A program made the position numbers and the translations under genes. Below, in pieces: positions 16,958-43,509 of a DNA stretch of 48,555 bases. This DNA is from Alphaproteobacteria bacterium (GTDB lineage: Bacteria > Pseudomonadota > Alphaproteobacteria > Rs-D84). The first letter of the stretch is position 1, and the number at the start of each line of letters is the position of its first letter. Below the pieces are notes generated by a model. It had not been told where the DNA came from and did not search any database. It saw only the letters and a list, made by a program, of their open reading frames with translations. The stretch spans positions 1-48,555 of the forward strand of contig WRJH01000002.1 in the NCBI GenBank assembly GCA_009782315.1. Direction: 5' to 3'.

Positions 16958-17808
16958 ATTGCCCCCTTGTAATTCTGGTCATTTATCACAATCACCGCTT
17001 TGCGGCGCAGTTGTTTCAATTGCTGGTCGCCGATGAACATCGCCCGCTTGAACACCGCGTTCTGTTTTATTATATCGTCCAGTTCGCCGTATTCCTTCAT
17101 CTTTTGCCGTTTGCATACCAGCAAGACCGACCGGTCGGGCCCGCGCGACGACCAGGCAAGCAGCGGCAGGTCCGCAATCCGTCCGCGCGTTTCCACAGAC
17201 AATTCGAATTCCGGCGCAGTGATGCGCGTCGGCGCGCCGCCCAAATTCCACGCAATCTTTTCGGCCGTATCGCAATCTTTGGCCGGGGTTAATTTTTCGG
17301 CGACCGATTCCGGAATATCCGCAAGCCGCACAAGAGTCACGTCTATGGGAAGGCCGCGGCTGCGCGAAAGTTCCGCGATTTCGTCCTTTATATCCCGGTC
17401 GGTCACATTCACCGCCGGCATTATCGTGCGGCCGATAATCATCTGCCATGCGATATGCGATTTCGTCGCAAAGCGCAACATTTCCATTCCAACAGAATCA
17501 AGGCCCGAAACATCAAACCCGCGCGATTTCATATTGTCGATTTCCTTCTTAACTTCGGCGTCGGACGGGTTGATTTGTATCTGGGCCGCAAAGCCCAGCT
17601 TTATGTTGTCGTCTATGATATTGGAAAGGGCGCGCAGACGGTTGTCCGTTCCCGAATCGCCCTGTATATTCATCAGTTTCACCCGCGCGGTTATATCGCG
17701 GTCCGTTATCGGCGCGCCGTTGACGCTTGCTATAACCGATGCGCATTGCGCAACACAAGGCATAAGGCATAAGGCATAAGGCATAAGAAATTTGCAAATT
17801 GTTTTCAT
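16954..17808 (-). CDS. SurA-N-domain-like periplasmic chaperone (no obvious PPIase domain)
   Basis: 284 aa with a signal peptide. VNGAPITDRDI..R..L and the position immediately downstream of lptD (TAATG overlap) fit the lptD-surA arrangement. The signal peptide is encoded by a GGCATAA array. Confidence 0.6.
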   Translation of the reverse strand: MKTICKFLMPYALCLMPCVAQCASVIASVNGAPITDRDITARVKLMNIQGDSGTDNRLRALSNIIDDNIKLGFAAQIQINPSDAEVKKEIDNMKSRGFDVSGLDSVGMEMLRFATKSHIAWQMIIGRTIMPAVNVTDRDIKDEIAELSRSRGLPIDVTLVRLADIPESVAEKLTPAKDCDTAEKIAWNLGGAPTRITAPEFELSVETRGRIADLPLLAWSSRGPDRSVLLVCKRQKMKEYGELDDIIKQNAVFKRAMFIGDQQLKQLRRKAVIVINDQNYKGAI

Positions 17809-19874
17809 TATTTTTTTCCCTCTACTAATTTAAGGCTGAACGACAGTTTGAAAGTCGTGTTTCCGACGTAATTTTCGCTTTCGTCGTCCAGGTTGGTCCT
17901 TATCGCGCCGTCGCGCAGATATTCGAACCCTATCATATAGCACGGATGTTCGTAATAAAGCCCTGCATTCTGACGCTGTATCCGTTCGTCGGTGATATTG
18001 TAAATCGTGCGCGTGCGAAGATTCCACCGTTCCGTAAGCCCCAGGCCGAATCCGCCGACTATTTCGTTGTTGCGGCTGTTTTCCGTAAGCGCGTCGTCCA
18101 GCTGGACCGCGATTATATATCCCGCTTCGACATAATTTCTTTTGCCCAGGCGGGCCGTGGATTCAATATGGCGCAGTGCCAGGTTGGAATTCGCGAAACG
18201 CGCGCGGTTGTTTATCATAAACCAATCCTTATACTCGGCCGACAGCCGCCCGACAAAGTCCGACCCGCCGTTATGGTATCCGGAATTCGGGTCCAAATCT
18301 TTCGGTTTGGAAAAGTCGTAAGTCTGTCCGGCAAACCCGGATACGGATATGCCGCCGCGCGAAAAAGCGGACCAGCCAAGCCCGTAATCCGCATAATCGC
18401 CGTTCACCCAAAGGTCGTATCCGGAAAGCCGGTTGTCCGAAAAAAGCGTCGCGTCCGACAAGACCGAACCGGAAGAATCTATGTTCGCAAAGGCCGGCGT
18501 TTCCAAAACGCGCATGGCCGTGTACCGCACCCGCGGTTCTATGACATGGGTCCAGTCCCGTCGTTCGTTATTTACCAGGGGCAGCGCCCACTGGGCGTAT
18601 CCCGACGGCAGAAAGCGCGCCCGGGACCCGGAAAATCCAACCTCTCCGTCCAGCATGTCCGTGTTGTTGAAATAATAAAAATCGTACCGCGACGACGCCG
18701 CGAGAGTAACCCGCTGGCCGCCCCATATCGTCCACGGCGATGTGACGGTAGCAGACCCCAGCATTCTTTGCATATTGCCCGCCGTTTCGGAATTGTATAT
18801 GCCAATCATATCGCCCATAAAGGACACGTACGTATCGCCGTATACGGGCGCGGTTTGATACACGCCGTGAATATTCGGCAGTATGTCGCCGGAAATGCTG
18901 GACGATTGGACGCCGGGCATTACGCGCAGTTCCTGGAACACGTGCGCGTCTGTGCGGACGTATCCGCTGTCCGCAAAAACTTCCATCCGGGCGCCCGAAT
19001 CAAGAAACGGCTGGGCGTCATAGAACCCGTAATGCTGCAAATAAGTCTTGTCGGACGCACGCTGTAAAAATAATTTCGCGCGGGCGTGTTCGCCCAGTTC
19101 AATCAAATCTTCGTTGAACACGTGCCAGCGGTCGTTGCCCGCCCGGTTGCTGGTGTACGACCCCGTCGTCCGGAAACTGGAATGATGCGCGTTCAGCCGG
19201 TGCTCCAACTGCCATATCGGATTTTCCGCGGTAAGATACCCGGGCGTAAAGGTAAAATCGTGAGTGTCCGAAACCACAATGTAAAGCGGCAGGTTAACCT
19301 GGGTCCCCATGTTGTTCGTCGTGTTCACATAGGGAATCAGGAATCCGGATTTGCGCTTTATGCTGGGGTCCGGATACGACAGGTACGGCGACCAGAATAT
19401 CGGAACATCATAGGCCCAGAACACCGCGTTATAGAATTCCATCATGCGCGCGTCGGCGTCGTGGCGCATGCGGTCGGCCGACACCTCCCACGCGTTCACA
19501 TTGGTGTCGCAGTCGCCGCACGCCGTGTACACGACGCTTTGGGCAAGCGTTATGTTATCCTGTTTTTCGACGGATGCGGCCGAAAAGTGCGTGCGGGTCC
19601 CCAGCCATACTTCGACACGCTGTCCGCCCGCATGCGCGCCGCGATTGTCCATATACGCGTCAAGCAGGGTCATGCGCTTGCCGTCCGACGTTTCCATTTT
19701 TGTGTCGCCGGCCGTCTTTATGGATTGCGTTTTGCGGTCGAATTCTATCCTGTCGGCCGTGATGGTTTTGTCGGAGCTAGTGTCAAGAGAGAGAGCGTGA
19801 GCCGAACTGAAAACTAATAACGAAGAACCAAGAACCAGCGTCATACGAAAGAAAATCGGAAAATGGTATTTCAT
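17808..19874 (-). CDS. lptD: LPS-assembly outer membrane protein LptD
   Basis: 688 aa with a signal peptide. N-terminal OstA-like ADRIEFD; RKSGFLIPY motif; large beta-barrel region. Confidence 0.85.
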   Translation of the reverse strand: MKYHFPIFFRMTLVLGSSLLVFSSAHALSLDTSSDKTITADRIEFDRKTQSIKTAGDTKMETSDGKRMTLLDAYMDNRGAHAGGQRVEVWLGTRTHFSAASVEKQDNITLAQSVVYTACGDCDTNVNAWEVSADRMRHDADARMMEFYNAVFWAYDVPIFWSPYLSYPDPSIKRKSGFLIPYVNTTNNMGTQVNLPLYIVVSDTHDFTFTPGYLTAENPIWQLEHRLNAHHSSFRTTGSYTSNRAGNDRWHVFNEDLIELGEHARAKLFLQRASDKTYLQHYGFYDAQPFLDSGARMEVFADSGYVRTDAHVFQELRVMPGVQSSSISGDILPNIHGVYQTAPVYGDTYVSFMGDMIGIYNSETAGNMQRMLGSATVTSPWTIWGGQRVTLAASSRYDFYYFNNTDMLDGEVGFSGSRARFLPSGYAQWALPLVNNERRDWTHVIEPRVRYTAMRVLETPAFANIDSSGSVLSDATLFSDNRLSGYDLWVNGDYADYGLGWSAFSRGGISVSGFAGQTYDFSKPKDLDPNSGYHNGGSDFVGRLSAEYKDWFMINNRARFANSNLALRHIESTARLGKRNYVEAGYIIAVQLDDALTENSRNNEIVGGFGLGLTERWNLRTRTIYNITDERIQRQNAGLYYEHPCYMIGFEYLRDGAIRTNLDDESENYVGNTTFKLSFSLKLVEGKK

Positions 19875-19907
19875 GTTCAGTTCTTAGTTTTTAGTTATTA
19901 GTTTTTT
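19807..19907. repeat. Imperfect inverted heptamer arrays spanning the lptG-stop / lptD-start junction
   Basis: ctgaaaactaataacgaagaaccaagaaccag (encodes the LptD signal peptide LVLGSSLLVFS) versus gttcagttcttagtttttagttattag (encodes the LptG C-terminus). About 17 of 21 positions are complementary in the best segment. Confidence 0.65.
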
Positions 19908-20969: not shown

Positions 20970-21103
20970 TCGTGGTCCGTGTTCGTGGTTCGTGGTCGTG
21001 GTCCGGGGTATTCTAGTACAATGGATTGCAATATCAAACTTTTTTTCTTGACCCAAACCATGAACCACGACCACGAGCCACCAGCACGAACCACCAACCA
21101 CGA
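20969..21103. repeat. Inverted pair of 7-nt-period arrays (TCGTGGT / ACCACGA) in the lptG-nusA divergent region
   Basis: ttcgtggt ccgtgt tcgtggt tcgtgg tcgtggt ccgg ... aaccatg aaccacg accacga gccacc agcacg aaccacc aaccacga. Confidence 0.85.
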
Positions 21104-22881: not shown

Positions 22882-25257
22882 ATGGCAACATTAACACTTA
22901 AAAAATCTGTCGACACGGGCGCGGTTCAAAGCGCAAAGGGCGCGGTCATATCCGTAGAGCGCCGGCGCAAAATCGAAATCCCGGGCGCGCGCACCCTGCG
23001 GGAAGAGCCGAAATCCCCCGCCCCCCAAAGCGCCGCGGACGAAAAGCTGCGCGCCATATTAGAGGCGAACAAAGAACGCGAAGCCCAGCGCCAGAAACAA
23101 CAGGCCGAAGACGACGCCCTGCGCGCGCGCCGCGATGCGGAAATCGCCCGCGAAGAGGAGGAATATGCCGCCGTAAAGGAAAAACTGAACGCGAAAGCCG
23201 CCGTGGAAGAAGATGACAGGAATCAGGAATCGGGAACCAGGAATCAGTCGTTCGGCCGCCCGTCTTTCGCCGCGCCCAAAGCGGCCGACGACGATGAAAA
23301 CGATGCGCGGAAAAACAAAGGCAAAAAGGGAAGCGTTAAAAAAGATTTTTCCAAAGGCAAGATTTCCATACGCGACATAGTCATGTCTTCGGACGACGAG
23401 GGCGATTCTGAAATGGGAATCCGCGCGGGCGGGCACCGCCGCAGCGACGCGTCCTTGAAACGATTCCGCGACAAGGCGCGCCAGATGTTCGCGGCCCCGC
23501 AAAAAGTATCGCGCGAAGTCGTTATCGGCGATTCCATCACGGTCAAGGAACTGGCCGCCGCCATGGCCGAAAAGGTCGGCGCGGTTGTCAAAAAACTGAT
23601 GGAAATGGGAATGATGGCGTCGCAGAACCAGTCGCTGGACGCGGATACCGCGGAACTTGTCGCAACCGAATTCGGCGCGGCTGTCAAACGCGTCGTAACA
23701 GCGCCGCACGCCGAATTGCTTTCCCGCGCGGCAAACCCGGACAATATGAAACCCCGCGCGCCGGTCGTTACCGTCGTGGGCCATGTCGACCATGGAAAGA
23801 CTTCCCTTTTGGACGCATTTCGCGGCGCGAACGTGGTCGCAAAGGAAGCCGGCGGAATAACACAGCATATCGCCGCGTACGAAGAAAAATCGGCATCCGG
23901 AAAAATGATAACTTTCCTGGACACACCCGGGCACGAAACCTTTTCCGCAATGCGCGCGCGCGGCGCAAATATGGCCGACATCGTCGTCCTGGTCGTCGCC
24001 GCGAACGATTCCATAATGCCGCAGACTGTCGAAGCAATCAGTCATATCCGCGCCGCAAAGGTTCCGTTCATTGTCGCGATTAATAAAATAGATTTGTTTG
24101 ATGCCGACGCGCAGCGCGTCAAAACCGACCTGTTGCGGCACGAGGTTCAGGTAGAGCAAATGGGCGGCGACGTTCAATCGGTCGAGATTTCCGCGACCAA
24201 AAAAATCAACCTGGACAAACTGGAAGACGCGATTCTGGTCCAGGCCGAACTGATGGATTTAAAGGCCGACCCGGACATGCCGGCCGTTGCCACCGTCGTG
24301 GAGGCAAAAATGGAAAAAGGCCTGGGGCCGACGGCGACAGTGCTGGTTCAACAGGGACGGCTTTCCGTCGGCGACGTGTTCGTCGTTGGCGAAACATGGG
24401 GCCGCGTGCGCGGACTGGTAAATTCGAACGGCGTGCGGGTGAAATCCGCGGGGCCTTCGCAACCCGTCATAGTTTTGGGTCTGGAAACGGTTCCGAACGC
24501 GGGCGACGAATTGCGCGGTCTGGAATCCGAATCCCAAGCGCGCGAAGTGGTGTCGTACAGACAGCATAAAAAACAAACGGAAGCCAACGCCGTCAAACGG
24601 TCGTCCTTGGAAGAATTGTTCGCAAAAAGAGACGAGACGAAAAAACTGACCCTGCCGGTCGTTCTGCGCGCGGATGTCCAGGGTTCGGTCGAAGCCATAC
24701 GCGACATGCTGAAAGGCGTCCAAAGCGACAAGGCCGCAATAGATTTGATTTCCGCAGGCGTCGGCCAGATTACCGAAGGCGACGTACGGCTGGCCGCCGC
24801 GTCTAACGCAATCATAATCGCATTCAATGTCCGCGCCGATTCCGCAGTGCGCGAGGTGGCCAAATCATTGGGCGCGGATATTCGCTATCATTCCATCGTA
24901 TATCGCATTACGGACGAACTGAAAGACGTTCTGACCGGAAAGCTGGCGCCGGAACGCCGCGAAAACTTTATCGGATACGCCGACATTATCGCATTGTTCA
25001 CAGTGGGCAAGGGCGTGCGTGTGGCGGGATGCCGCGTGACCGAGGGCGTGATAAAACGCGACGCCTTTGTCCGCTTGCTTCGCGACAACGTCGTCATATA
25101 CGACGGCAAAATCGGCGTACTGAAACGCGAAAAGAACGAAGTAAAGGAAGTCGGCGTCGGCACGGAATTCGGTATGTCGTTCGACAAGTACAACGACCTG
25201 CGCGAAGGGGATCGCGTCGAATGCTATGAAGTCGAGAATATTAAGGCAACATTATAA
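22882..25257 (+). CDS. infB: Translation initiation factor IF-2
   Basis: 791 aa. G1 [13 protein letters not shown]3 DTPGHE, G4 NKID, with a charged N-terminal region. Confidence 0.95.
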
Positions 25258-25258
25258 G

Positions 25259-25359
25259 TCATAAGGCATAGGGCATAAGGCATAACAAAGTCAGAGATTG
25301 CTGAAATAAATTTCAACAATCGCAAAACTAATATGCCTTATGCCCTATGCCTTATGACT
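25259..25359. repeat. Inverted pair of GGCATAR arrays between convergent infB and rsmE
   Basis: gtcataaggcatagggcataaggcataac ... atatgccttatgccctatgccttatgac. The 44-nt loop has its own small hairpin. The right arm encodes the RsmE C-terminus. Confidence 0.85.
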
Positions 25360-26055
25360 TAGAGCGGCGATAGCCGCGACGGCGGCGGTTTCGGCGCGAA
25401 GGACTGTCGGGCCCAATGATATGCCGGTCGCGTCGGCGTTGTCCAGCGCGGCGAATTCCCTTTCCGAAAAACCGCCTTCGGGGCCTATCAAAACGACTGT
25501 GTCGTTTTGGCGTGAGACGTAAGGCGTAAGACGTGAAGCGTTATTATCAACCGTTCGTTCGTCGGCGAAAAACAATTCGGCTTTCGGTTCACGGCTTTCG
25601 GTTTTCGATAAGAATTCATCAAACTTTACCGGTTCCGCCAATTCCGGCACGCTATTCCGGCCGGATTGTTCCGCCGATTCTATTATGATTTTTCGGACCC
25701 GGTCCCATTTGACGCGATGTTCGTTTACCCGTTCCGTTATCACCGGCTGTAATTTCCGGACGCCCGTCTGCGTCGCCATCGACAGCATCTCTTCCAGCCG
25801 CGATTGTTTTATCGGCGCGAACGCAAGCGTCAAGTCGTTCGACGGGTCAAGGCGGCCGGAAGGCATAAGGCACAGGGCATAAGGCATATTATCTTGTGTG
25901 GCAAGTTTGGCGTGAAATTCTTGCCCATTATTGAAAACCAAAAATTCGTCCGTGCGCATGACCCGCGATAAATAATGTTCGGTGTCTTTCGATATTGAAA
26001 AACTTTTCCCGGTTTCCAGGTTTTCATTCAAATAAATTCTTGGTATATTTTTCAT
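25345..26055 (-). CDS. rsmE: 16S rRNA (uracil1498-N3)-methyltransferase RsmE
   Basis: 236 aa. IPRIYL..HYLSRVMR N-terminal PUA-like region; C-terminal LIGPEGGFSEREF. It carries two in-frame heptamer arrays (25511-25540, 25861-25888). Confidence 0.85.
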   Translation of the reverse strand: MKNIPRIYLNENLETGKSFSISKDTEHYLSRVMRTDEFLVFNNGQEFHAKLATQDNMPYALCLMPSGRLDPSNDLTLAFAPIKQSRLEEMLSMATQTGVRKLQPVITERVNEHRVKWDRVRKIIIESAEQSGRNSVPELAEPVKFDEFLSKTESREPKAELFFADERTVDNNASRLTPYVSRQNDTVVLIGPEGGFSEREFAALDNADATGISLGPTVLRAETAAVAAIAALSHKA

Positions 26056-26060
26056 AATTT

Positions 26061-26092
26061 TATGCCTTATGCCCTATGCCTTATGCCCTTAT
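26061..26092. repeat. TTATGCC-type heptamer array upstream of rsmE
   Basis: tatgccttatgccctatgccttatgccctta. It is inverted relative to the array at 25861-25888 inside rsmE. Confidence 0.75.
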
Positions 26093-30455: not shown

Positions 30456-31213
30456 GAGTCGAATTTTTCTTTGCCGACGATAATCGTTCCATCGGAAAAT
30501 TCCGGCCTTGCCTGGGTTTTGATTTCCGTCCGCCAAAAGACGTCCCCGGTGCCGCCCGCTATCGCATACAAGTAACCGTCCGTGCCGACCACATAAGAAA
30601 CGCCCGTCCGGACAATGAACGGCGTGCCGGTGCCGACGCCCGAACACCAAACTTTCGCGCCCGTGTCCGAGTTGAGTTTGCAGAAAGAACCGCCCAATCC
30701 CCCCGCATAGACAAACCGGTCGCCGTCCGTCATTACGGGCGCGACGACGTCAAGTATGCTGGACCCGCCGGTCATCGCGCTGGATTTGAAAATGTCCGCG
30801 ACCCACACCAGGTTGCGCGTAGCCCTATCTATCTTTACGACTTCGCCGGTGGACAGTCCGGCGAATATGTATTTGTCCGTCACCGTCGGCCGTCTTTCGC
30901 CGGAAACATGGGCGGTCGTCGGAAAACCGGAAAATATCCGAATCCGTTCGTCCCCGGATATCCGCCATACTACATTGTTGGAATCCTGTATGTATTCCGC
31001 GGTCCGCACCCCCGGCCGCGATATTTCTTTCAGCGCGTTTTCCGGTACCGGTTTGTCCAGAACCACGATTCCGCCGGTATCGAACACGGAATGCCGTTCG
31101 CCCGGAAGTACCGGGTCCTTGGTGGCGCAGGCGCAAAGCGCTATAAGGCATAGGGCATAAGGCATAGGGCATATGCGCTTTGTAATCATTGAAAGTATTT
31201 TCATCAATCTCAT
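30434..31213 (-). CDS. PQQ-like beta-propeller lipoprotein, BamB-like (short)
   Basis: 259 aa with lipobox LIALCAC-A. Repeated G.v.a.d..tG...W motifs (KIDRATRNLVW, LNSDTGAKVW, AIAGGTGDVFW). It lies downstream of a yfgM-like gene. Confidence 0.6.
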   Translation of the reverse strand: MRLMKILSMITKRICPMPYALCLIALCACATKDPVLPGERHSVFDTGGIVVLDKPVPENALKEISRPGVRTAEYIQDSNNVVWRISGDERIRIFSGFPTTAHVSGERRPTVTDKYIFAGLSTGEVVKIDRATRNLVWVADIFKSSAMTGGSSILDVVAPVMTDGDRFVYAGGLGGSFCKLNSDTGAKVWCSGVGTGTPFIVRTGVSYVVGTDGYLYAIAGGTGDVFWRTEIKTQARPEFSDGTIIVGKEKFDSITGDMR

Positions 31214-31242
31214 ACTTTTATGCCTTATGCCCTATGCCTTGT
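31141..31242. repeat. Inverted GGCATAR arrays straddling the bamB-like start codon
   Basis: ctataaggcatagggcataaggcatagggcata (encodes the signal peptide PMPYALCL) and ttttatgccttatgccctatgccttg. There are 22 consecutive complementary nt, and the start codon 31211-31213 lies in the loop. Confidence 0.85.
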
Positions 31243-32022: not shown

Positions 32023-32955
32023 ATGAAAGTCAAAAGCGAAAAGAGACAAGACAACGATACAAGGGACGAAGCCGCCCTGCCGGCCGTCTGCAACCCCTTG
32101 CCCATTGTGACGTCCGACGACGCCAATCTGGAACGGTATATCCGGTCCGTCCAGAATTTTCCCATGCTTTCCGCCGAAGAGGAATACGAATACGCGCAAA
32201 GCTGGCGCCGGGCGGGCGACAAGTTCGCGGCCGAAAAACTGGTGTCCAGCCATCTGCGCATGGTCGTTTCCGTCGCGTACGATTTCAAGAATTACGGAAT
32301 TCCCGTCGCGGATTTGATTGCCAGCGGCAATTTGGGACTGATGCAGGCGCTTTCCAAATTCGACCCGGAACGCGGATTCCGGTTTTCAACGTACGCCATG
32401 TTCTGGATAAAGGCGGAGATTTACGACACCGTTCTGAACAACTGGTCTTTGGTAAAAATCGGAACGTCGGCGAATCAAAAGCGCGTGTTCTTTAACCTGG
32501 CGCGGGCCAAACGCGCGCTGGGCATAATGGACAACAATCTTTCCGACGACCAGACAAAGCAAATCGCGGAATATTTGGAAGTTCCGGAACTGGACGTGTC
32601 GCGCATGCAAAAACGCATCGCCGCGCGCGATTTGTCGCTGAACCGGCCGGCGCGCGACGAGTCCGATTCGCCGGACATGCTTTCCAATCTGGCGGATGAC
32701 GAAAATTCAATCGAAGACAAATTAGAACAATCGCAATTCAGAAATTTCGGGCGCGAGCTGTTGCAAAAACATCTGGCGGCGATGCCGGAACGCGACCGCG
32801 AAATTTTAATCGCAAGGCGCCTGTCCGACCCGGCGCCGACCCTGGAGCAATTATCCGAACGGCACAAGATTTCGCGCGAACGCGTCCGGCAGATAGAAGA
32901 GCGGGCGTTTGCAAAACTGCGGGACGCGATTCTGGCGGATGCCAACAAGTCATAA
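32023..32955 (+). CDS. rpoH: RNA polymerase sigma-32 factor RpoH
   Basis: 310 aa. Region 2 LVSSHLRMVVSVA, YAMFWIKAEI; RpoH-box-like QKRVFFNLARAK; region 4.2 ISRERVRQIEERA. Confidence 0.9.
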   Translation: MKVKSEKRQDNDTRDEAALPAVCNPLPIVTSDDANLERYIRSVQNFPMLSAEEEYEYAQSWRRAGDKFAAEKLVSSHLRMVVSVAYDFKNYGIPVADLIASGNLGLMQALSKFDPERGFRFSTYAMFWIKAEIYDTVLNNWSLVKIGTSANQKRVFFNLARAKRALGIMDNNLSDDQTKQIAEYLEVPELDVSRMQKRIAARDLSLNRPARDESDSPDMLSNLADDENSIEDKLEQSQFRNFGRELLQKHLAAMPERDREILIARRLSDPAPTLEQLSERHKISRERVRQIEERAFAKLRDAILADANKS

Positions 32956-33051
32956 GGCATAGGGCATAAGGCATAAATAATATGAGATTGATTAAACTAG
33001 TTTCAATAAGCACAAAACTGATATGCCTTATGCCCTATGCCTTATGCCTTG
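32949..33051. repeat. Inverted GGCATAR arrays straddling the porin-like start codon
   Basis: gtcataaggcatagggcataaggcataaat ... atatgccttatgccctatgccttatgccttg. The 24-nt core ataaggcatagggcataaggcata is the same as at 25261 and 31143. The right arm encodes CLMPYALCLA. Confidence 0.85.
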
Positions 33052-36468: not shown

Positions 36469-37083
36469 TTACCAGCGCGGGGCGCGTTTGCCTTCTTTAA
36501 GTATCGGCTGTTCGTTTTCCCAAACCGACAGGCCCGTCTTCAAATCCGTCAGTGTCAGCTGCAGATAATATTCCACGCGTTCGTTTTTGCTGTCGAACCA
36601 TCCGCTGTCCAGTTTCAGATTACGCTGCAACATCTTGCCCGACAAGGACATGTTCGGCGCGACCAATGTTCCCTTGCCCGCGAATGAATTGGCGGCGTAT
36701 TCCGAATTGCCGCGCATATCGCGCATTGTGTTGCTGGTCGTGTCTTCGCCGCCGAAATTAGTGGCAATCTGTGCGCGGCCGGAATTGACCAGGTCGCTGC
36801 GGATTTTCTTGGTCAGTATGTCCGTGTCGAAACGCTGCTGGGTGTCGTTAATCATCGGGCCCATTGCGATAACCGGGTCTTTGATTCGCGCGAATCCGCC
36901 GGATTTGAACATGGAATTAACCATTTCTTCGGCCGTGTTCGTCCAATCCCTATATTCCAATTCCATCACATGGCTCATCCCCGATACCGCTTTCGAATCG
37001 TTCGTGTCGATTACTTTCGTTCCGCCGCAGGCGCAGAGCATAAGGCATAAGGCATAAGGCATAAGGCATTTTATTTTGTTCAT
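36469..37083 (-). CDS. LpoB-like (COG3417-type) lipoprotein
   Basis: 204 aa with lipobox LMLCAC-G. DWTNTAEEMVNSM..IAMGPMINDTQQRFDTDILTKKIRSDLVNSGRAQI resembles the LpoB-family core. From memory. Confidence 0.5.
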   Translation of the reverse strand: MNKIKCLMPYALCLMLCACGGTKVIDTNDSKAVSGMSHVMELEYRDWTNTAEEMVNSMFKSGGFARIKDPVIAMGPMINDTQQRFDTDILTKKIRSDLVNSGRAQIATNFGGEDTTSNTMRDMRGNSEYAANSFAGKGTLVAPNMSLSGKMLQRNLKLDSGWFDSKNERVEYYLQLTLTDLKTGLSVWENEQPILKEGKRAPRW

Positions 37084-37086: not shown

Positions 37087-38340
37087 TTATCCTTTTAGTT
37101 TTATTATTTTTGGTTTAATTTCTTCGTTCGGCAATCTTATGTAGACAAGATGGTTTCCGTGTCTTTCAATTTTGAATTCTGTAACAACTGTACCACCGGA
37201 TTTTAATGTAATCAAGCAATCATTGCTTTTGCACTTTGCATCCTTGTCAATCCGCAGCACGTATATTTTCTTTGGCAATGTGGCCCATGTTCGGATTTCG
37301 GCGCTGGTCATAGCCATGCCGGCCGCGACCGCCGCGATTCCGCCAAGCGTTCCGCCGTAATGGTTCGCCGTGCCCTGCATCGCCAATTTCGTCGCCGCGC
37401 TTGCGGCCGCGCGCAGCGCATCGTTGACCGCGTATTCTTTGTATTCCGTCATAAACATGGCGTCGATGTTCGCGACCAATTCCGCCCCGTCGACGGCTTG
37501 CCCGCCGTCAAGCATAATCGGTTCCGACACTGCAATCGATACGGCGCTTACGCCGCCGGCGGTAACCATGGGCCAATCGATTCGCCGTTCGATCAATTTC
37601 GGCGAAAATCCCGATTCGATAAATATCCATGCAGTGTTTACGGGCGTGCGCCGCGCGGAAGCGGCGGCCAGGTCTTGTTTTATAAATTTGTTGCCGGGCG
37701 CCATTCCGTCCGCGCGCGACAGGTATGTGCGCGCGGTTTCAAAATCCGACGGGCCCGACGCGAAATTCAAAAAATATATTCCGGCAAGGTAAGTCAACGC
37801 CGGATTCATAATATCCTTGAAAGATTCCCAAGACGCGTTTTCGGCGCGCAATTGTTTGCCCAGGCCGTTCGAATCTTTTTCCTTTTTACGAATCAGCGAC
37901 GCGTATTCGGCGGACAGGCGCTGTTGTTTCGCGTACGATTGATTTATAATCACGCGGGCGTCGGCTGTTCGTCCGTCCGCAATCGCGGACCATATCTGGT
38001 AATACGAAACAAACAGGTCGTCCATAAAATACGGCTTGTAATCCGCGGACAGATTTCCGGCGATGGCGCGGCCGATTTCGCCGGTTATGCCGGAAGACTG
38101 CGCTTTTTCCATCCGGCGGTTTATGGATTCGAATTCTTTGTCCGCGTCGCCGAATTTATTTTGTTGGAACAGCGCGTTCCCGGAAAGCAAAGGGTCCAGG
38201 TTTTTATCGCCGACTTTTTGTTTTTCGAATACGCCCGCCTTGAAATCGGCCCGCGCGTCGTCAAGGCGTTTTTCCATAGACCCGGCGCAGGCGCCAAGAA
38301 AGAGCATAGAGCATAGAGCAAAGATAATAGACTTGTTCAT
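37087..38340 (-). CDS. Lipoprotein of unknown function (417 aa)
   Basis: Lipobox LFLGAC-A. It is co-oriented with the lpoB-like gene, 3 nt upstream of it. The signal peptide is partly encoded by a GAGCATA array. Confidence 0.6.
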   Translation of the reverse strand: MNKSIIFALCSMLFLGACAGSMEKRLDDARADFKAGVFEKQKVGDKNLDPLLSGNALFQQNKFGDADKEFESINRRMEKAQSSGITGEIGRAIAGNLSADYKPYFMDDLFVSYYQIWSAIADGRTADARVIINQSYAKQQRLSAEYASLIRKKEKDSNGLGKQLRAENASWESFKDIMNPALTYLAGIYFLNFASGPSDFETARTYLSRADGMAPGNKFIKQDLAAASARRTPVNTAWIFIESGFSPKLIERRIDWPMVTAGGVSAVSIAVSEPIMLDGGQAVDGAELVANIDAMFMTEYKEYAVNDALRAAASAATKLAMQGTANHYGGTLGGIAAVAAGMAMTSAEIRTWATLPKKIYVLRIDKDAKCKSNDCLITLKSGGTVVTEFKIERHGNHLVYIRLPNEEIKPKIIKLKG

Positions 38341-40266: not shown

Positions 40267-41489
40267 AACAGCGCGGAAGCAATCTTCTTGAAACATTGCT
40301 GGCCATCGGGTTGGTTTCGGCGATGGCGCCTTTTGTGTACAACCGCGTGGCCGAAGTCAGCCGCGATATAAAAGACGTCGCCATGGCGCGGCAGATAGCG
40401 GGGTGGAAATACCCCGTGTCCGGATTTATCCGAAGCAGTCAGATGAATTGGGAGGAAGACAAGCTGGTCGAATTGGACGCAAAGGAATTGCAAGAGATTG
40501 CAGGTAAGGAAATCAAAGGCGCTATAGCGATGACGCCCGCTTTCGCATTCATTGAAAAGTTCAGACATCTGGGCGGCGTCACGGTCGAGGCATATCTGTT
40601 GTTCCCAGGAAAATTCGACGGAATCCGAATGCATAAGATAGCGCGTCATCTGGGCGCGGACGCCGCCGTCGCGGGGCCGGAAAACACGGCGTTTTCCGTC
40701 GGCGGCGGATGGAGCATAGAGACGGAAATGATGCAGGAAAACGATTTGGTGTACCGGATACCGGTCGAATTGCCCCGGGATGATTCGTTCAATTTTATGC
40801 ACCGGGTGGATGCGGGCGACGAACGTCTGAACACCATGGAGCGCAATCTGATGATGGCGCGCAACAACGTGACGAACGCCGGCGCCGTGGGCGCGGGACT
40901 GCTTGATTCTAAGATGGTGTCCGGATGGTTCGCGGCCATAGAATCGTTCGCCGCGGACGAAGCAGTGTTTCCGGACGGCGCGAACATGGACGGAAGCAAC
41001 GCGTCGTTCGACGGAGTTCGCGTCATGGGCGACGTCGTCGGATTCAGAAACATCCAGGCGGATTTGTTCGAAGGCGGCGGCGGCGCGGGAAACTGGTCCG
41101 CCCAGGGCGATATAATCGCAAGCCGCGCCCAGATTATGGAATCGGTCCGCGTCGGGCGGACCATGACCGTAAAGTCGGCGACATCAAGGACCGTTTCCGG
41201 ATTCACAGGGATCAGCGCGTACAACCTGACCGTGCCGTTCGTGTCCGCGGACGAGATGCGCTTTGCGGACGGATTGGGTCTGGTCGTGTCAAACGAACTG
41301 TCGTCAAGTTATTCCGATGCGCCGCTGAAACTGGGCAACTGGATGTTAACATCGCAAAGCGCGGCGCCCGGATTTTCGTCGTTAACCGTTTCTAATGCGG
41401 GAAACATGGAGTTCAATGTGCCGGCGGAAAAATTCGGGGAAATAATGAAGGAAGGATGGAAGGATTCAGAGAGCATAGAGCAAAGATAA
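40260..41489 (+). CDS. Large type IV pilin-like protein, paralog B (409 aa)
   Basis: Internal ATG 40260 overlaps the stop of A (ATGCTAG). MLEQRG/SNLLETLLAIGLVSAMAPF is a short basic leader ending in Gly, with Glu at +5 and a hydrophobic helix. FMHRVDAGDERLNTMERNLMMARNNVTNAG. Confidence 0.7.
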   Translation: MLEQRGSNLLETLLAIGLVSAMAPFVYNRVAEVSRDIKDVAMARQIAGWKYPVSGFIRSSQMNWEEDKLVELDAKELQEIAGKEIKGAIAMTPAFAFIEKFRHLGGVTVEAYLLFPGKFDGIRMHKIARHLGADAAVAGPENTAFSVGGGWSIETEMMQENDLVYRIPVELPRDDSFNFMHRVDAGDERLNTMERNLMMARNNVTNAGAVGAGLLDSKMVSGWFAAIESFAADEAVFPDGANMDGSNASFDGVRVMGDVVGFRNIQADLFEGGGGAGNWSAQGDIIASRAQIMESVRVGRTMTVKSATSRTVSGFTGISAYNLTVPFVSADEMRFADGLGLVVSNELSSSYSDAPLKLGNWMLTSQSAAPGFSSLTVSNAGNMEFNVPAEKFGEIMKEGWKDSESIEQR

Positions 41490-41587
41490 TAGAGCATAGA
41501 TGGGGTCGTTACAGGTGTTGAATATAAAAAAATATTTTTCAAATTGTTCAAAGCATTTATGCTCTATGCTCTATGCTCTATGCTCTG
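41468..41587. repeat. Inverted GAGCATA arrays between pilin-like genes B and C
   Basis: agagagcatagagcaaagataatagagcatagatgg ... tttatgctctatgctctatgctctatgctctg. Confidence 0.85.
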
Positions 41588-42888
41588 CGCGTTCGCATAG
41601 CGAACGTGCGGAACGCGGCGGAATGATGGTAGAGCTGTTGCTGGCGCTGGCATTGGCGGCGGCCATGCTGCCCTTTCTGGTCGGACAAGAGAACGCCCGG
41701 GTGCGCCGCGCGGAAAATCTGAAAGCGGCCGCCGATATGGCCGCCGTCCGGTCCGCTTTGGAAAAATACATGGAGGAAAACAAAAGAGAGCTGTTGTCGT
41801 CCGTCGGCCGCAACGTTGTTCGCGTGTCTTTGGAAGATTTAGAGGAATTCGATTTGAACGTAGAATCATTGGGCAGGGCGGAACAGTTCCAGATGCGCGT
41901 CGTGAAAAGCGCCGACCGCGGCGGACGGTCCTTCCTGCAAGGAATCGTCGTTATGGACATAGACGGCGCGGCGCCCATTCGCACGCGCGAAATCGCGCTG
42001 GCCGCGGGCGCGGGCGCCGGCATGGCCGACGGCCCGGACACGTTCGGCGCGTTCGGAACATGGCGAACAAAAGCCAATATATGGAACGCAAGGTTCAGCG
42101 ACCGGTCGTTGCTGGACATGACCGCCGCCGTCGTATCCGGCGAAGAATTCCTGCGCCGTGTTTCGGGCGGCGGCGCGGACGACGCAACAATGCGGTCCGA
42201 CCTGGCCATGGGCGGGCACGATATAACGGGGGCGGGTTCAATATTCGCAGAGGCTTCTAAATTCACGGAAACCATAAACGCGAATACAGCGGGCGCCAAC
42301 CGTCTGGTTGTCGAAAACAGGCCCGCTTTGGATGGAAATATCGCCGTCGCCGGCGAAGCGCTGGTATCGGGCGCGCTTTCTTCCGATTCCCGCGGCATAG
42401 ATACGCAACGCATGACCGTGCCGGGACGCGCGCGGTTTTCTTCGGTCGCCGCGCTGCGGCTTTGGGCGGGCGATCTGACGCTGGGCGGATTTTCCGTGTC
42501 GGATATGGATGAAAAAGCTGCCAGTCTTTCGGTCGGAGGGTCCATAGACATGACCGGCGGACGCGTTACCGCAATGCAGATGTTCGTCGGCGGAGGCGGC
42601 AGCGTGACGCCGCGCCTGGTGGTTCGGGAAAGAATCGAAGACCCGAAAAACGCCGCGTATTTCTGGGACTTTTCCGCACGCGACGCGGTGTTTTTCGACG
42701 TAATGCTGCCCGCGTTGCCCCAGATGATGAGACAAGCCGCGCGCGGCGCCGACACAAGCACGTACGCATACCGGGCGATGTCCGCCGTATTCAATAACAA
42801 CAACGCGACTGTCGCGGATTACGCGCGCGCGCTTTCCGAAATAGAGCGAAGGATTTCGGCGGAATACGACAGGTTGAATTTGGAATAA
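41500..42888 (+). CDS. Large type IV pilin-like protein, paralog C (start uncertain: 41500, 41566 or 41623)
   Basis: ..AERG/GMMVELLLALALAAAMLPFLV has Glu at +5 after a Gly. ATMRSDLAMGGHDITGAG motif. The first about 40 codons of the ORF are heptamer-repeat DNA. Confidence 0.65.
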   Translation: MGSLQVLNIKKYFSNCSKHLCSMLYALCSARSHSERAERGGMMVELLLALALAAAMLPFLVGQENARVRRAENLKAAADMAAVRSALEKYMEENKRELLSSVGRNVVRVSLEDLEEFDLNVESLGRAEQFQMRVVKSADRGGRSFLQGIVVMDIDGAAPIRTREIALAAGAGAGMADGPDTFGAFGTWRTKANIWNARFSDRSLLDMTAAVVSGEEFLRRVSGGGADDATMRSDLAMGGHDITGAGSIFAEASKFTETINANTAGANRLVVENRPALDGNIAVAGEALVSGALSSDSRGIDTQRMTVPGRARFSSVAALRLWAGDLTLGGFSVSDMDEKAASLSVGGSIDMTGGRVTAMQMFVGGGGSVTPRLVVRERIEDPKNAAYFWDFSARDAVFFDVMLPALPQMMRQAARGADTSTYAYRAMSAVFNNNNATVADYARALSEIERRISAEYDRLNLE

Positions 42889-42900
42889 ATTTCCTTTACA

Positions 42901-43383
42901 ATGCGCGTTGATATGAAAATCAAATGCCCTTTTTGCAGAACGGATTACGCGGCGGACATCCCCGGCGGCAAGCGCGCGGAATGCGCGCTGTGCGGACATG
43001 CGTGGATGCCGCCCAGACACCGCGGCCCGATTCTGATATGGGGTGCGGTCCTTTTTGCCGCCGTGTTTGCAGGGATGGCCGCGGTCAGATATATGCCGAC
43101 AAAAAAACCGAAAGCGCCCCTGGTCATCGAAATGACCGGCGTCCAAAAGACGGCCGAAGAAGCATGGGTCGTATCGGGCCGCGTCAGAAATTTGTCCGGA
43201 AAAATTTACGGAATTCCGGATATGGCGCTGGTCGTGAAAAATAACGCGGGCGACGAGGTTCTGCGCCAGAAAGTGCGCCCGCCGGTGCCGATTCTGGATA
43301 TAGGAGAGGCGGCGGAATTCGCCCACACTATCGCCGATTTTCCGCCGGCTGCGAAAAAACTGGCGGTGGAGTTTATAAAGTAG
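42901..43383 (+). CDS. Zinc-ribbon (MJ0042-type) + TM + DUF3426-like protein, ZitP-like
   Basis: 160 aa. KCPFCRTDY..(16)..CALCGHAW is a CxxC..CxxC ribbon. TM helix ILIWGAVLFAAVFAGMAAV. The C-terminal beta-rich domain has VSGRVRNLSG..VVKNNAGDEVL..LDIGEAAEF. Confidence 0.65.
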   Translation: MRVDMKIKCPFCRTDYAADIPGGKRAECALCGHAWMPPRHRGPILIWGAVLFAAVFAGMAAVRYMPTKKPKAPLVIEMTGVQKTAEEAWVVSGRVRNLSGKIYGIPDMALVVKNNAGDEVLRQKVRPPVPILDIGEAAEFAHTIADFPPAAKKLAVEFIK

Positions 43384-43509
43384 AGCATAGATAATAGAGC
43401 ATAGAGTATAACAATGGAGAATATACAAATGATGACATTAAAAAATAAATCTATGAAATTTTTCAAAAACATATATCTATGCTCTATGCTCTATGCTCTA
43501 TGCTCTATT
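43381..43509. repeat. Inverted GAGCATA arrays straddling the start of the next exported-protein gene
   Basis: tagagcatagataatagagcatagagtata ... atctatgctctatgctctatgctctatgctctatt. The start codons 43414/43429/43453 lie in the loop. The right arm encodes LCSMLYALCSI. Confidence 0.85.

What the first reader, a model, noticed from the sequence alone, without database searches (positions are those of the whole stretch)
17758..43509. Repeat DNA encodes the hydrophobic core of signal peptides in at least seven exported or outer-membrane proteins
- **GGCATAR arrays read on the complementary strand give MPYALCL.** They occur in the SurA-like protein (FLMPYALCLMPCVAQCAS), BamB-like protein (ICPMPYALCLIALCAC), porin-like protein (LICLMPYALCLASPAAA) and LpoB-like protein (KCLMPYALCLMLCACGG).
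- **GAGCATA arrays give MLYALCS / FALCSML.** They occur in the 417-aa lipoprotein, the 43429 exported protein and the N-terminal extension of pilin-like C.
- **LptD:** Its LVLGSSLLVFS is encoded by a GGTTCTT-type array.
- **Lipoboxes:** In three cases the array runs straight into the lipobox Cys.
- **Two possible readings:** One is exaptation of a mobile or slippery repeat as a ready-made h-region. The other is a contingency-locus arrangement like the CTCTT repeats in Neisseria opa signal peptides, because 7 is not a multiple of 3 and gain or loss of one unit would switch the protein off.
- **Caveat:** The units are imperfect and lptD is essential. This argues against simple phase variation for every case.
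Basis: partly seen in the sequence, partly recalled or inferred. Interest (0 to 1): 0.75.

Follow-up and report, generated by a model that had tools for sequence, protein, structure and literature searches.

The report
Hairpin repeat arms encode signal peptides
In this uncultured termite-gut alphaproteobacterium, short runs of 7-base repeats that form hairpins at gene boundaries are translated as the greasy core of the export signals of at least seven envelope proteins, which shows how freely a signal peptide can be rebuilt from repeat DNA.

Summary
GGCATAR and GAGCATA heptamer arrays are strongly over-represented. They lie downstream of credible start codons in SurA-like, LptD, BamB, LpoB, a porin-like protein, a 417-aa lipoprotein and the 43414 protein, where they form the h-region.

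The pairs fold into hairpins of -31 to -62 kcal/mol that bracket the start codon. They belong to a window-wide population of 45 period-7 arrays with many different units.

More distant relatives lack arrays and have ordinary signal peptides at the same aligned positions. Close relatives carry arrays of other units at the same sites, and the two arms stay complementary.

Arrays also sit in cytoplasmic proteins, but there they encode hydrophilic linkers. Signal-peptide arrays are all hydrophobic. Arrays overlap the first 40 codons in 9 of 12 exported proteins and at most 1 of 32 others.

Best reading: a lineage-specific family of hairpin repeats is retained in coding DNA only where its peptide fits the local protein context.

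The phase-variation reading has little support: arrays have only 3-5 units, sit in housekeeping genes, and show no length differences between assemblies. How the arms spread is unresolved.

The parts
17757..17787 (-). Orphan TTATGCC x4.4 array with perfect units. It encodes surA signal-peptide codons 8-18 (LMPYALCLMPC). No partner arm was found.
   Evidence: A GAGGG Shine-Dalgarno sequence and a TAATG overlap with the lptD stop lie upstream of the array.
19810..19835 (-). 3' arm of the lptD hairpin. It is translated as VLGSSLLVF (codons 14-22).
   Evidence: (I18).
19880..19905 (-). 5' arm of the lptD hairpin. It overlaps the lptG stop codon, and the lptD ATG (19874) lies in the 44-nt loop.
   Evidence: (-31.4 kcal/mol, z -5.4).
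25255..25361 (.). Intergenic copy of the GGCATAA palindromic element, lying between the convergent genes infB and rsmE. Its 30-nt arms are 100% complementary.
   Evidence: I5; -61.8 kcal/mol, z -14.
25860..25888 (-). Array inside cytoplasmic rsmE (codons 56-66, NMPYALCLMPS). It replaces a hydrophobic beta-strand and pairs with the arm at 26061-26087.
   Evidence: (I10).
26061..26087 (-). 5' arm upstream of the rsmE start codon. It is 96% complementary to 25862-25888, with 172 nt of native sequence between the arms.
31143..31173 (-). 3' arm of the bamB element, translated as ICPMPYALCLI. The conserved lipobox Cys follows.
   Evidence: (I22).
31174..31240 (-). Loop and 5' arm (31219-31240) of the bamB element. 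The loop supplies the ATG (31213) and the n-region MRLMKILSMITKR. The 5' arm starts right after the yfgM-like stop codon.
   Evidence: (-46 kcal/mol, z -7.4).
32946..33021 (+). 5' arm (32946-32976, overlapping the rpoH stop) and loop of the porin element. The loop supplies the ATG (32982) and the n-region MRLIKLVSISTKL.
   Evidence: I1; -51.7 kcal/mol, z -8.7.
33022..33051 (+). 3' arm of the porin element, translated as ICLMPYALCLA.
   Evidence: The same MPYALCL core is present in the L035/L121 orthologue.
37038..37069 (-). Orphan TTATGCC x4.6 array with perfect units. It encodes lpoB codons 5-16 (KCLMPYALCLML) and ends 3 codons before the lipobox Cys.
   Evidence: The Shine-Dalgarno sequence and ATG are conserved with array-free orthologues.
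38301..38324 (-). TATGCTC-type array encoding codons 6-14 (IFALCSMLF) of the 417-aa lipoprotein.
41470..41586 (+). GAGCATA hairpin at the junction of pilin-like genes B and C. The 5' arm encodes the last residues and the stop codon of B. The 3' arm (41554-41586) encodes HLCSMLYALCS upstream of the prepilin-like GG|MMVELLL.
   Evidence: I6; -50.7 kcal/mol.
43378..43510 (+). GAGCATA hairpin around the start of the 43414 exported protein. The 3' arm (43476-43510) encodes YLCSMLYALCSIC, followed by AHA|Q.
   Evidence: I7; -47.3 kcal/mol, z -8.1.

Best explanation
This lineage of termite-gut Alphaproteobacteria carries a large population of tandem heptanucleotide arrays. Each array has 3-5 units, occasionally about 10. 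Most occur as inverted pairs 2-170 nt apart that fold into long hairpins at gene junctions.

Why one strand can be read (follows from the genetic code):
- Because 7 and 3 share no factor, a heptamer array gives the same cyclic heptapeptide in all three frames.
- For GGCATAA and GAGCATA, one strand has a stop codon in every frame. The other strand (TTATGCC, TATGCTC) is open, hydrophobic and carries an ATG in every unit.
- An array that overlaps a gene can therefore be read in only one orientation, and it then yields MPYALCL or MLYALCS.

What the sequences show:
- At co-directional gene junctions the 5' arm abuts or supplies the upstream gene's stop codon.
- The loop holds the start codon.
- The 3' arm runs into the downstream gene.

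Inference: such overlaps survive only where the encoded peptide fits the protein.
- Hydrophobic units survive in the loosely constrained h-region of Sec and lipoprotein signal peptides, and in one buried beta-strand of RsmE.
- Hydrophilic units survive in linkers of cytoplasmic proteins.
- In front of other cytoplasmic genes the arm stops just short of the ATG.

In bamB and the porin-like gene, the element also provides the start codon and the positively charged n-region. Most of the signal peptide is therefore repeat-derived, and only the c-region or lipobox is ancestral.

The arrays are not phase switches. How arms spread and stay complementary is not resolved. Candidates are transposition of whole elements, slippage with template switching, and ectopic gene conversion.
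For: The arrays are translated.
- lpoB has the same Shine-Dalgarno sequence and ATG as array-free orthologues, upstream of the array.
- surA starts at a TAATG overlap with lptD, preceded by GAGGG.
- The lipobox Cys or AxA site aligns with that of the orthologues.
- The first-ATG starts used here reproduce sequences already held in the public protein collection under NCBI, ENA or JGI/IMG.

Hairpins.
- Inverted pairs are listed.
- Folding energies are -31 to -62 kcal/mol, with z-scores of -5 to -14.
- Three copies of the GGCATAA element are 75-84% identical, loop included.

Comparison with relatives.
- About 65 more distant relatives have essentially no arrays, whereas the closest relatives have 0.15-1.3 per kb.
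- Array-free BamB, LpoB, lipoprotein, porin and SurA orthologues have ordinary signal peptides.
- The closest relatives carry other units at the same sites. BamB has MPYALCL, LFLIPCSL, MLYALCS or LPFTFCLLP in different genomes.
- The arms remain 88-100% complementary in 13 of the 15 orthologous hairpins whose arms were recovered; porin L121 has a decayed 15-nt arm and lptD L121 reaches 78%.

Context filter.
- Signal-peptide units have a mean Kyte-Doolittle hydropathy of +2.1, and all are at least 1.5. Only 10% of stop-free heptamers reach that value.
- Linker units average -1.3 (Mann-Whitney p = 2e-5).
- Der linkers carry hydrophilic arrays in nearly every close relative.
- Arms stop 0-18 nt before the ATG of accC, lptG, der, infB and recF.

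Enrichment.
- In the window, arrays overlap the first 40 codons in 7 of 9 exported proteins against 0-1 of 26 others.
- On 9.7 kb of the same contig outside the window, two more exported proteins have GAGCATA-type cores. The combined count is 9 of 12 against 0-1 of 32 (p = 3e-6 to 3e-7).
Against: - No SignalP or LipoP run and no experiment. Export is inferred from protein family and from orthologue signal peptides.
- The gene classes used for the Fisher test were assigned by me.
- Simple element insertion does not explain several observations:
  - The lpoB and rsmE arrays replace native sequence of about equal length.
  - At rsmE the arms flank 160-170 nt of native coding sequence.
  - In the genome of L120 and L204, four loci share AAGGAAT arms but have unrelated loops.
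- Complementarity that persists while the unit changes could mean the hairpin itself is under selection. In that case 'tolerated' understates its role.
- Hairpins of -46 to -52 kcal/mol around start codons should impede translation initiation. That is hard to call neutral.
Confidence: 0.72

Rival explanations
1. Selected RNA clamp. The arm pairs are a functional mRNA (or single-stranded DNA) structure that encloses the translation-initiation region. It might act through fold-back inhibition of read-through transcripts, enforced translational coupling, or an RNase III site. On this view the h-region does double duty as peptide and as the 3' stem arm. This reading is compatible with the arrays being translated.
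For: - Start codons of lptD, bamB, porin, the 43414 protein, pilin-like C and rsmE lie between the arms.
- Orthologous hairpins keep 88-100% complementarity while the unit changes.
- At rsmE, both the window and L121 pair an upstream arm with an arm inside the coding sequence about 160-170 nt away.
- The same arms flank locus-specific loops in L120 and L204.
- The hairpins are not canonical terminators. GC-rich terminators with T tracts exist elsewhere in the window.
Against: - surA and lpoB in the window have orphan arrays with no partner.
- lpoB has no array in three close relatives.
- Copies also lie between convergent genes (25255-25361) and inside linkers.
- Slippage combined with quasipalindrome template switching could keep arms complementary without any selection.
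- No Rfam family matches, and no expression data are available.
Confidence: 0.25
2. Contingency loci. Unit gain or loss by slipped-strand mispairing switches these envelope proteins on and off, as CTCTT repeats do in Neisseria opa leader peptides.
For: - The unit length is not a multiple of 3.
- Several arrays are perfect: surA x4.4, lpoB x4.6, the 43414 protein x4.7 and pilin-like C x4.1.
- A perfect 10.6-unit 5' arm exists on the same contig (L210 21378-21451).
Against: - Arrays have only 3-5 units, against 13-24 in phase-variable hmw heptanucleotide tracts (PMC8262952).
- The targets include lptD, surA, bamB and lpoB rather than variable surface antigens.
- The arrays in four JGI/ENA assembly pairs are identical: zero indels, 0-2 mismatches, none located in the arrays.
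- Every orthologous array is in frame.
- ATG occurs in all three frames within the arrays.
- The same arrays occur in untranslated regions and in cytoplasmic proteins.
Confidence: 0.06
3. The arrays are untranslated. The true start codons lie downstream, and the ORFs are over-extended by mechanical ORF calling.
For: - This is true for several neighbours. The arrays before lptG, der, accC and infB are in frame with the long ORF but lie upstream of the conserved start.
- It is possibly true for part of the pilin-like C extension.
Against: - The mature parts begin right after a lipobox Cys or AxA site that aligns with the orthologues. Without the array there would be no h-region.
- No in-frame start codon exists downstream of the arrays and before the cleavage site.
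- The Shine-Dalgarno sequence and ATG upstream of the lpoB array are conserved.
Confidence: 0.03

Closest known systems
Palindromic repeat elements and MITEs co-translated with host genes: Rickettsia RPE, Yersinia YPAL/RU-2, Coxiella QMITE
   Same: - Hairpin elements of about 100-170 nt at gene junctions, with one open reading frame fused in frame to host genes.
- The YPAL ORF is hydrophobic, and the signal peptide of YPO1552 is partly formed by the MITE (PMC2229807).
- QMITEs supply the C-terminal residues and stop codons of neighbouring genes (PMC5896051), as the 5' arms do here.
   Different: - The arms here are tandem heptamers, and their unit changes between genomes and between loci.
- The targets are conserved envelope-biogenesis genes (lptD, surA, bamB, lpoB), and the same sites recur across species.
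- Several arrays replace native sequence or flank it rather than being inserted as a unit.
- No target-site duplication is visible.
Heptanucleotide simple-sequence repeats: cyanobacterial STRR and the TAACTGA repeats of Beggiatoaceae, Cyanobacteria and Bacteroidetes (PMC4679880)
   Same: - 7-nt units in 2-6 tandem copies, mostly intergenic and often abutting start codons.
- One orientation gives stop codons in all frames, and the other gives a repeating heptapeptide.
- Occasional overlap with the ends of ORFs.
   Different: - The arrays here are mostly inverted pairs that form hairpins. In BOGUAY only 1 of 170 repeat sets was an inverted repeat.
- Many different units coexist in one genome.
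- The arrays are systematically translated as signal-peptide cores.
- GGCATAR arrays in other phyla are mostly intergenic (95 of 125) or just upstream of start codons.
Neisseria opa CTCTT leader-peptide repeats (PMC3745409)
   Same: A tandem repeat whose unit is not a multiple of 3 lies in the DNA encoding the hydrophobic part of a leader peptide.
   Different: - opa tracts are long and perfect and switch at about 1e-3 per generation in variable adhesins.
- The arrays here have 3-5 units, often imperfect, in housekeeping genes, with no length variation seen.
REP / BIME / REPIN doublets
   Same: Inverted doublets about 100 nt long that form long hairpins, are abundant at gene junctions and occur in families within a genome.
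   Different: - The arms here are not themselves small palindromes and lack GTAG or CGTC tags.
- They are tandem heptamers.
- No RAYT gene could be looked for.

Membership tests
Sec / lipoprotein signal peptide (n-h-c) | N-terminal position, downstream of a credible start codon | tested here: met
   - The Shine-Dalgarno sequence and ATG of lpoB are conserved with array-free orthologues.
- surA starts at a TAATG overlap with lptD, preceded by GAGGG.
- The lptD N-terminus aligns with that of L121.
- The first-ATG ORFs are already held as proteins in the public collection under NCBI, ENA or JGI/IMG.
Sec / lipoprotein signal peptide (n-h-c) | Basic n-region followed by a hydrophobic core of 7-15 residues | tested here: met
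   - The n-regions are MKTICK, MRLMKILSMITKR, MNKIK, MNK and MKFFKN.
- The array heptapeptides have a Kyte-Doolittle hydropathy of 1.56-3.06.
Sec / lipoprotein signal peptide (n-h-c) | A c-region with AxA or a lipobox L-x-[GA]-C, at the position seen in orthologues | tested here: met
   LCAC|A (bamB), LCAC|G (lpoB), LGAC|A (417-aa lipoprotein), AAA|Y (porin-like), AHA|Q (43414 protein) and AQC|AS (surA) all align with the cleavage sites of array-free orthologues.
Sec / lipoprotein signal peptide (n-h-c) | Demonstrated export and cleavage, or a dedicated predictor score | not testable with these tools
   SignalP and LipoP are not available, and no proteomics data exist.
Phase-variable contingency locus (opa / hmw type) | An SSR inside the ORF or promoter whose unit is not divisible by 3 | tested here: met
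   7-nt units lie inside the leader-coding DNA.
Phase-variable contingency locus (opa / hmw type) | A long perfect tract that supports high slippage rates | tested here: not met
   The coding arrays have 2.7-4.7 units. Phase-variable hmw tracts have 13-24 units (PMC8262952).
Phase-variable contingency locus (opa / hmw type) | Unit-number polymorphism within or between populations | tested here: inconclusive
   Four JGI/ENA assembly pairs show no indels at all and only 0-2 mismatches per pair. These are consensus assemblies, possibly built from the same reads. No read-level data are available.
MITE / palindromic repeat element (RPE, YPAL, Correia) | A unit of about 100-170 bp with terminal inverted repeats that folds into a long stem-loop | tested here: met
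   The units are 96-133 nt with arms of 22-33 nt, and fold at -31 to -62 kcal/mol.
MITE / palindromic repeat element (RPE, YPAL, Correia) | Dispersed copies that share internal sequence as well as their ends | tested here: inconclusive
   - Met for three GGCATAA copies in the window (75-84% identity overall, loops 61-70%).
- Not met in L120 and L204, where the same arms flank unrelated loops.
- Not met at rsmE, where native coding sequence lies between the arms.
MITE / palindromic repeat element (RPE, YPAL, Correia) | Target-site duplication, and filled versus empty sites | tested here: inconclusive
   - No clear duplication is visible at the three full copies.
- Empty sites exist at bamB in L122 and L176 and at lpoB in L121 and L122.
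- The filled sites are replacements of native sequence, not clean insertions.
Heptanucleotide SSR (STRR / TAACTGA class) | Tandem 7-nt units, a few copies each, concentrated in intergenic DNA next to start codons | tested here: met
   - 45 period-7 arrays are present, against 4-6 arrays for each of periods 6, 8 and 9.
- Arms end 0-18 nt before several start codons.
Heptanucleotide SSR (STRR / TAACTGA class) | The named units (STRR1-3, TAACTGA) | tested here: not met
   The units here are GGCATAA, GAGCATA, AGGTATT, TTCGTGG, AATTAGC, CCGTTTA and others. Only AACTGAG (4985-5017) resembles TAACTGA.
REP / REPIN | Each REP is a 20-40 nt imperfect palindrome with a GTAG or CGTC tag, and a RAYT gene is present | tested here: not met
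   The arms are direct heptamer repeats, not palindromes, and carry no GTAG or CGTC tag. The presence of a RAYT gene could not be tested.

The most novel reading that the evidence does not exclude
The arm pairs are not passive repeats. On this reading they form a lineage-wide, actively homogenised system. A genome-specific heptamer 'code' is written on both sides of the translation-initiation regions of envelope genes and some other genes. It would be kept complementary either by selection for an mRNA clamp or by an unknown array-copying mechanism. The signal-peptide h-region would then be dual-coded, as peptide and as RNA stem. In addition, because A-rich and T-rich complementary arms encode hydrophilic and hydrophobic peptides respectively, such a hairpin would be a portable 'start codon + n-region + h-region' export cassette. 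L208 surA illustrates this: MNKEQRTKNKEQITKSK comes from the 5' arm and LFSFVLCYLFFV from the 3' arm.
Probability: 0.25. Interest if true: 0.85.

Novelty: new variant of a known kind. Interest (0 to 1): 0.62.

Why it matters
- It is a natural, replicated experiment on how little sequence information a signal peptide needs. The cores of the leaders of LptD, SurA, BamB and LpoB have been overwritten repeatedly by whatever hydrophobic heptapeptide a 7-base repeat happens to encode.
- It extends the idea of selfish DNA inside proteins, known from Rickettsia RPE and Yersinia YPAL, to tandem-heptamer hairpins. It also gives a simple genetic-code rule for where such repeats can survive.
- The concerted change of complementary arms across loci and species raises an open mechanistic question about how heptanucleotide repeats arise and spread. 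These repeats are abundant in several phyla and remain unexplained.
- For annotation, it shows that low-complexity repeats at 5' ends should not be trimmed automatically from exported proteins.

Tried and rejected
- **Genome-collection scan.** A scan for GGCATARx3 returned mostly cyanobacterial STRR-like arrays. It was useful only because it gave one relative (L035). It could not provide a census of the source genome.
- **Arrays in other phyla.** The context of those arrays shows they are mostly intergenic, so this lineage cannot be generalised to them.
- **Rfam** found only tRNAs.
- **NCBIfam** gave no hits for the porin-like protein, the 417-aa lipoprotein, the 43414 protein or the pilin-like proteins.
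- **Loop motif.** A search for the GGCATAA-element loop motif in all fetched loci found it only in the window's own genome.
- **Protein-level periodicity.** An i/i+7 test on SurA leaders is weak. The arrays span only about 1.5 heptapeptide periods, and only 14 of 112 leaders reach 4 or more matches.
- **Assembly comparison.** Comparing independent assemblies for unit-number differences found none. This is only a weak test.
- **Terminator idea.** The consensus scan does not flag the hairpins, and they lack T tracts. Classical GC-rich terminators are present elsewhere in the window.
- **Assembly artefact.** Rejected. The arrays are shorter than the reads and recur in several samples and species.
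- **Literature.** Searches found no description of this phenomenon.

Full report
**1.

GGCATAR occurs 43 times in the window against 11.2 +/- 3.0 expected. GAGCATA occurs 17 times against 2.6 +/- 1.7. Tandem Repeats Finder lists 45 period-7 arrays, against 0-5 in each of 20 dinucleotide shuffles. Periods 6, 8 and 9 have only 4-6 arrays each.

| Gene | Codons | Peptide |
|---|---|---|
| surA | 8-18 | LMPYALCLMPC |
| lptD | 14-22 | VLGSSLLVF |
| bamB | 14-24 | ICPMPYALCLI |
| porin-like | 14-24 | ICLMPYALCLA |
| lpoB | 5-16 | KCLMPYALCLML |
| 417-aa lipoprotein | 6-14 | IFALCSMLF |
| 43414 protein | 21-33 | YLCSMLYALCSIC |
| pilin-like C | 19-29 | HLCSMLYALCS |

- Pfam confirms LptD, BamB/PQQ_2 and LpoB, and supports SurA_N weakly.
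- NCBI names the SurA orthologues 'SurA N-terminal domain-containing protein'.
- The window is part of a 59.2-kb contig of an uncultured alphaproteobacterial MAG from termite gut. The first-ATG ORFs used here are already held as proteins in the public collection (sources NCBI, ENA, JGI/IMG).

**2. The arrays are translated**

- *lpoB.* The Shine-Dalgarno sequence and the ATG (ctaaaaggataaactATGAACAAA) are conserved with relatives that have no array. The array lies between this start and the conserved lipobox Cys-Gly-Gly-Thr.
- *surA.* The ATG overlaps the lptD stop (TAATG) and is preceded by GAGGG.
- *bamB, lpoB, the 417-aa lipoprotein, the porin-like protein, the 43414 protein and surA.* More distant, array-free orthologues have ordinary signal peptides. 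Their lipobox Cys or AxA site aligns exactly with the residue that follows the array in the window.
- There is no in-frame start codon between the arrays and the cleavage sites. Without the array these exported proteins would have no h-region.
- By contrast, the arrays in front of lptG, der, accC and infB, and in front of recF in relatives, end 0-18 nt before the conserved start codon and are not translated.

**3.

Most arrays are one arm of an inverted pair.

- On the coding strand the 5' arm carries GGCATAA or GAGCATA and has stop codons in all frames. The 3' arm carries TTATGCC or TATGCTC and is open.
- For lptD, bamB, the porin-like gene, the 43414 gene and pilin-like C, the 5' arm abuts or contains the upstream gene's stop codon. 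The start codon lies in the 44-67-nt loop, and the 3' arm is the h-region.
- The predicted RNA hairpins fold at -31 to -62 kcal/mol, with z-scores of -5.4 to -14.
- Three GGCATAA copies are 75-84% identical, loop included: the intergenic copy between infB and rsmE (25255-25361), the bamB copy and the porin copy. In bamB and the porin-like gene the repeated element therefore also supplies the ATG and the n-region (MRLMKILSMITKR and MRLIKLVSISTKL).
- Other intergenic regions hold analogous pairs built from other units, including AGGTATK, AACTGAG, TTCGTGG, AATTAGC, AATAGGT and CCGTTTA/AACGGAA.
- The hairpins are not canonical intrinsic terminators. GC-rich stems with T tracts exist separately in the window. 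They match no Rfam family.

**4. Comparative evidence**

A metagenome scan with the neighbouring 204-aa membrane protein returned 80 syntenic loci.

- Heptamer arrays are present at 0.15-1.3 per kb only in the closest, termite-gut relatives. They are essentially absent from about 65 more distant ones.
- At orthologous positions the close relatives carry arrays of different units:
  - BamB: MPYALCL (window), LFLIPCSL (L120, unit AAGGAAT), MLYALCS (L121), LPFTFCLLP (L124).
  - Porin: MPYALCL (window and L121), LFLIPYSL (L120), CCLLFAVCYLL (L126).
  - LptD: VISCSLLVVSS (L121), ILFLIPYSLFLIP (L204), IYALCFMLYALC (L206).
  - SurA: LIPYSLFLIP (L204), IFIIHCSLFIIHC (L206), LFSFVLCYLFFV (L208).
- Among 120 SurA homologues the mature N-terminus, A(S/T)V(V/I)AT(V/I)NG, is conserved. 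Many leaders from close relatives have array-like cores, whereas the more distant ones have plain leaders.
- LpoB has an array only in the window.
- In 13 of the 15 orthologous hairpins whose arms were recovered, the two arms remain 88-100% complementary even though the unit differs between genomes.

**5. The same process reaches cytoplasmic proteins, with matching chemistry**

- The Der inter-domain linker carries hydrophilic arrays in nearly every close relative. The window has NQKSEIENQKSS at 35477-35510, and relatives have LEFRVESLDR, SHQPPATSHE and others.
- InfB, RecF and RluD also contain hydrophilic arrays.
- RsmE carries NMPYALCLMPS in place of a hydrophobic beta-strand, with no net insertion. 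L121 (VVSCSLLVVSP) and L129 (INYSLFIIHS) carry other arrays at the same site.
- Signal-peptide units have a mean Kyte-Doolittle hydropathy of +2.1, and all are at least 1.5. Only 10% of stop-free heptamers reach that value. Linker units average -1.3 (Mann-Whitney p = 2e-5).
- In the window, arrays overlap the first 40 codons in 7 of 9 Sec or lipoprotein precursors, against 0-1 of 26 other proteins.
- As an out-of-sample check I fetched 9.7 kb of the same contig beyond the window. Two more exported proteins there have GAGCATA-type cores (MKKRFYALCSMLYALPSL and ...RRISMLYALCSMLLLAAAPQAAFA). None of the cytoplasmic genes in that stretch has one. The combined count is 9 of 12 against 0-1 of 32 (p = 3e-6 to 3e-7). 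I assigned the gene classes from family membership and orthologue leaders, not with SignalP.

**6. How it most likely works**

Two things follow directly from the genetic code and the sequences.

- A heptamer array yields the same cyclic heptapeptide in all three frames, because it samples all seven cyclic trinucleotides.
- GGCATAA and GAGCATA contain TAA or TAG, so that strand is closed in every frame. TTATGCC and TATGCTC are open, hydrophobic (LCLMPYA, YALCSML) and contain ATG.

Arrays of three or more units therefore offer an ATG in each frame.

By inference, arrays and hairpins arise or land at gene junctions. Any overlap with a coding region is filtered by whether the heptapeptide fits there. 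The signal-peptide h-region is the most permissive place for a T/C-rich arm.

A-rich and T-rich complementary arms encode hydrophilic and hydrophobic peptides respectively. A hairpin can therefore mimic the n-h layout of a leader. L208 surA, as annotated, reads MNKEQRTKNKEQITKSK from the 5' arm and LFSFVLCYLFFV from the 3' arm.

Prolines and tyrosines inside the cores suggest tolerance rather than optimisation.

**7. Phase variation is unlikely**

- The coding arrays have 2.7-4.7 units, and some are imperfect.
- Known phase-variable heptanucleotide tracts have 13-24 units (PMC8262952). The opa CTCTT tracts switch at about 1e-3 per generation in variable adhesins (PMC3745409).
- The targets here are housekeeping envelope genes.
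- All orthologous arrays are in frame.
- Four pairs of JGI and ENA assemblies show no indels at all and only 0-2 mismatches per pair. This last test is weak, because these are consensus assemblies and may derive from the same reads.

**8. What remains unexplained**

Whole-element transposition fits the three similar copies in the window. It does not fit the following:

- The lpoB and rsmE arrays replace native sequence of about equal length.
- The rsmE arms flank 160-170 nt of conserved coding sequence, both in the window and in L121, with different units.
- In the genome represented by L120 and L204, four loci (lptD, surA, porin, bamB) share AAGGAAT arms around unrelated, locus-specific loops.

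Some combination of slippage, template switching between arms, ectopic gene conversion and possibly selection for pairing is needed to explain these cases.

A selected RNA clamp around the initiation region remains a live rival or complement to the tolerance model. It could act through fold-back inhibition, translational coupling or RNase III processing.

**9. Relation to known systems**

- The closest precedents are palindromic elements co-translated with host genes. Rickettsia RPE inserts in frame into conserved proteins. Yersinia YPAL/RU-2 has a hydrophobic ORF that forms part of the predicted signal peptide of YPO1552 (PMC2229807). Coxiella QMITEs donate C-terminal residues and stop codons (PMC5896051).
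- Heptanucleotide repeats that abut start codons, with stop codons in one orientation and a heptapeptide in the other, are described for TAACTGA (PMC4679880). Those are almost all direct repeats, not hairpins.
- I found no description of inverted heptamer arrays that bracket start codons and serve as signal-peptide cores.
- I therefore rate this a new variant of a known kind.

Noticed in passing
window 35477-35510; also L120 535-562, L123 783-851, L124 9301-9329, L125 4170-4240, L146 1229-1326: The linker between the two GTPase domains of Der/EngA carries a translated heptamer array in nearly every close relative. The unit differs each time, and some relatives have an inverted pair inside the coding sequence.
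   Followed up: partly
window 25860-25888 and 26061-26087; L121 19003-19039 and 19198-19228; L129 3160-3188: In cytoplasmic RsmE a hydrophobic beta-strand is replaced by an array at the same site in three genomes, each with a different unit. In the window and in L121 this array pairs with an arm upstream of the start codon, about 160-170 nt away.
   Followed up: partly
window 34806-34836 and 34962-34990: Two near-complementary perfect arrays (CCGTTTA x4.4 and AACGGAA x4.1) flank the divergent promoter region between the yip1-like gene and der. Each ends within 9 nt of its start codon.
   Followed up: no
window 1143-1173, 23217-23247, 44124-44153: Further translated arrays lie inside cytoplasmic genes: recF (SIEQRAESREW), the N-terminal region of infB ([11 protein letters not shown]) and the rluD-like gene.
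   Followed up: no
L210 21378-21451 (same contig, outside the window): A perfect 10.6-unit CATAGAG array forms the 5' arm in front of a 455-aa exported protein. This is the longest tract seen and the best candidate for length variation.
   Followed up: no
L210 14077-14109: A perfect GCCGAGA x4.7 array lies inside an inositol-monophosphatase-like gene and is translated as SALGSRLSALG.
   Followed up: no
window 11431-11486 and 11601-11676: A partial tRNA-like match (Rfam 34.9 bits) lies 115 nt upstream of tRNA-Val. Poorly characterised ORFs and a Fic gene (13209-14366) follow. This could be the scar of an integrated element.
   Followed up: no
window 26113-28347 and 38818-42888: A VirD4/TraG-like type IV coupling protein is present, together with a cluster of three large proteins that have prepilin-like N-termini (G|FMLQALL, G|SNLLETLL, GG|MMVELLL) and no family hits.
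   Followed up: no
window 5485-5491: The TolC-like leader (LKKLIIALLFMPFAANA) contains a single TTATGCC unit but no array. The 1018-aa exported protein at 45177 has no array either. These are the two array-free signal peptides in the window.
   Followed up: partly
L208 2224-2330: In one relative the stop-free 5' arm (GAACAAA x7) is annotated as translated and gives the lysine-rich n-region of SurA. The complementary 3' arm gives the h-region.
   Followed up: partly
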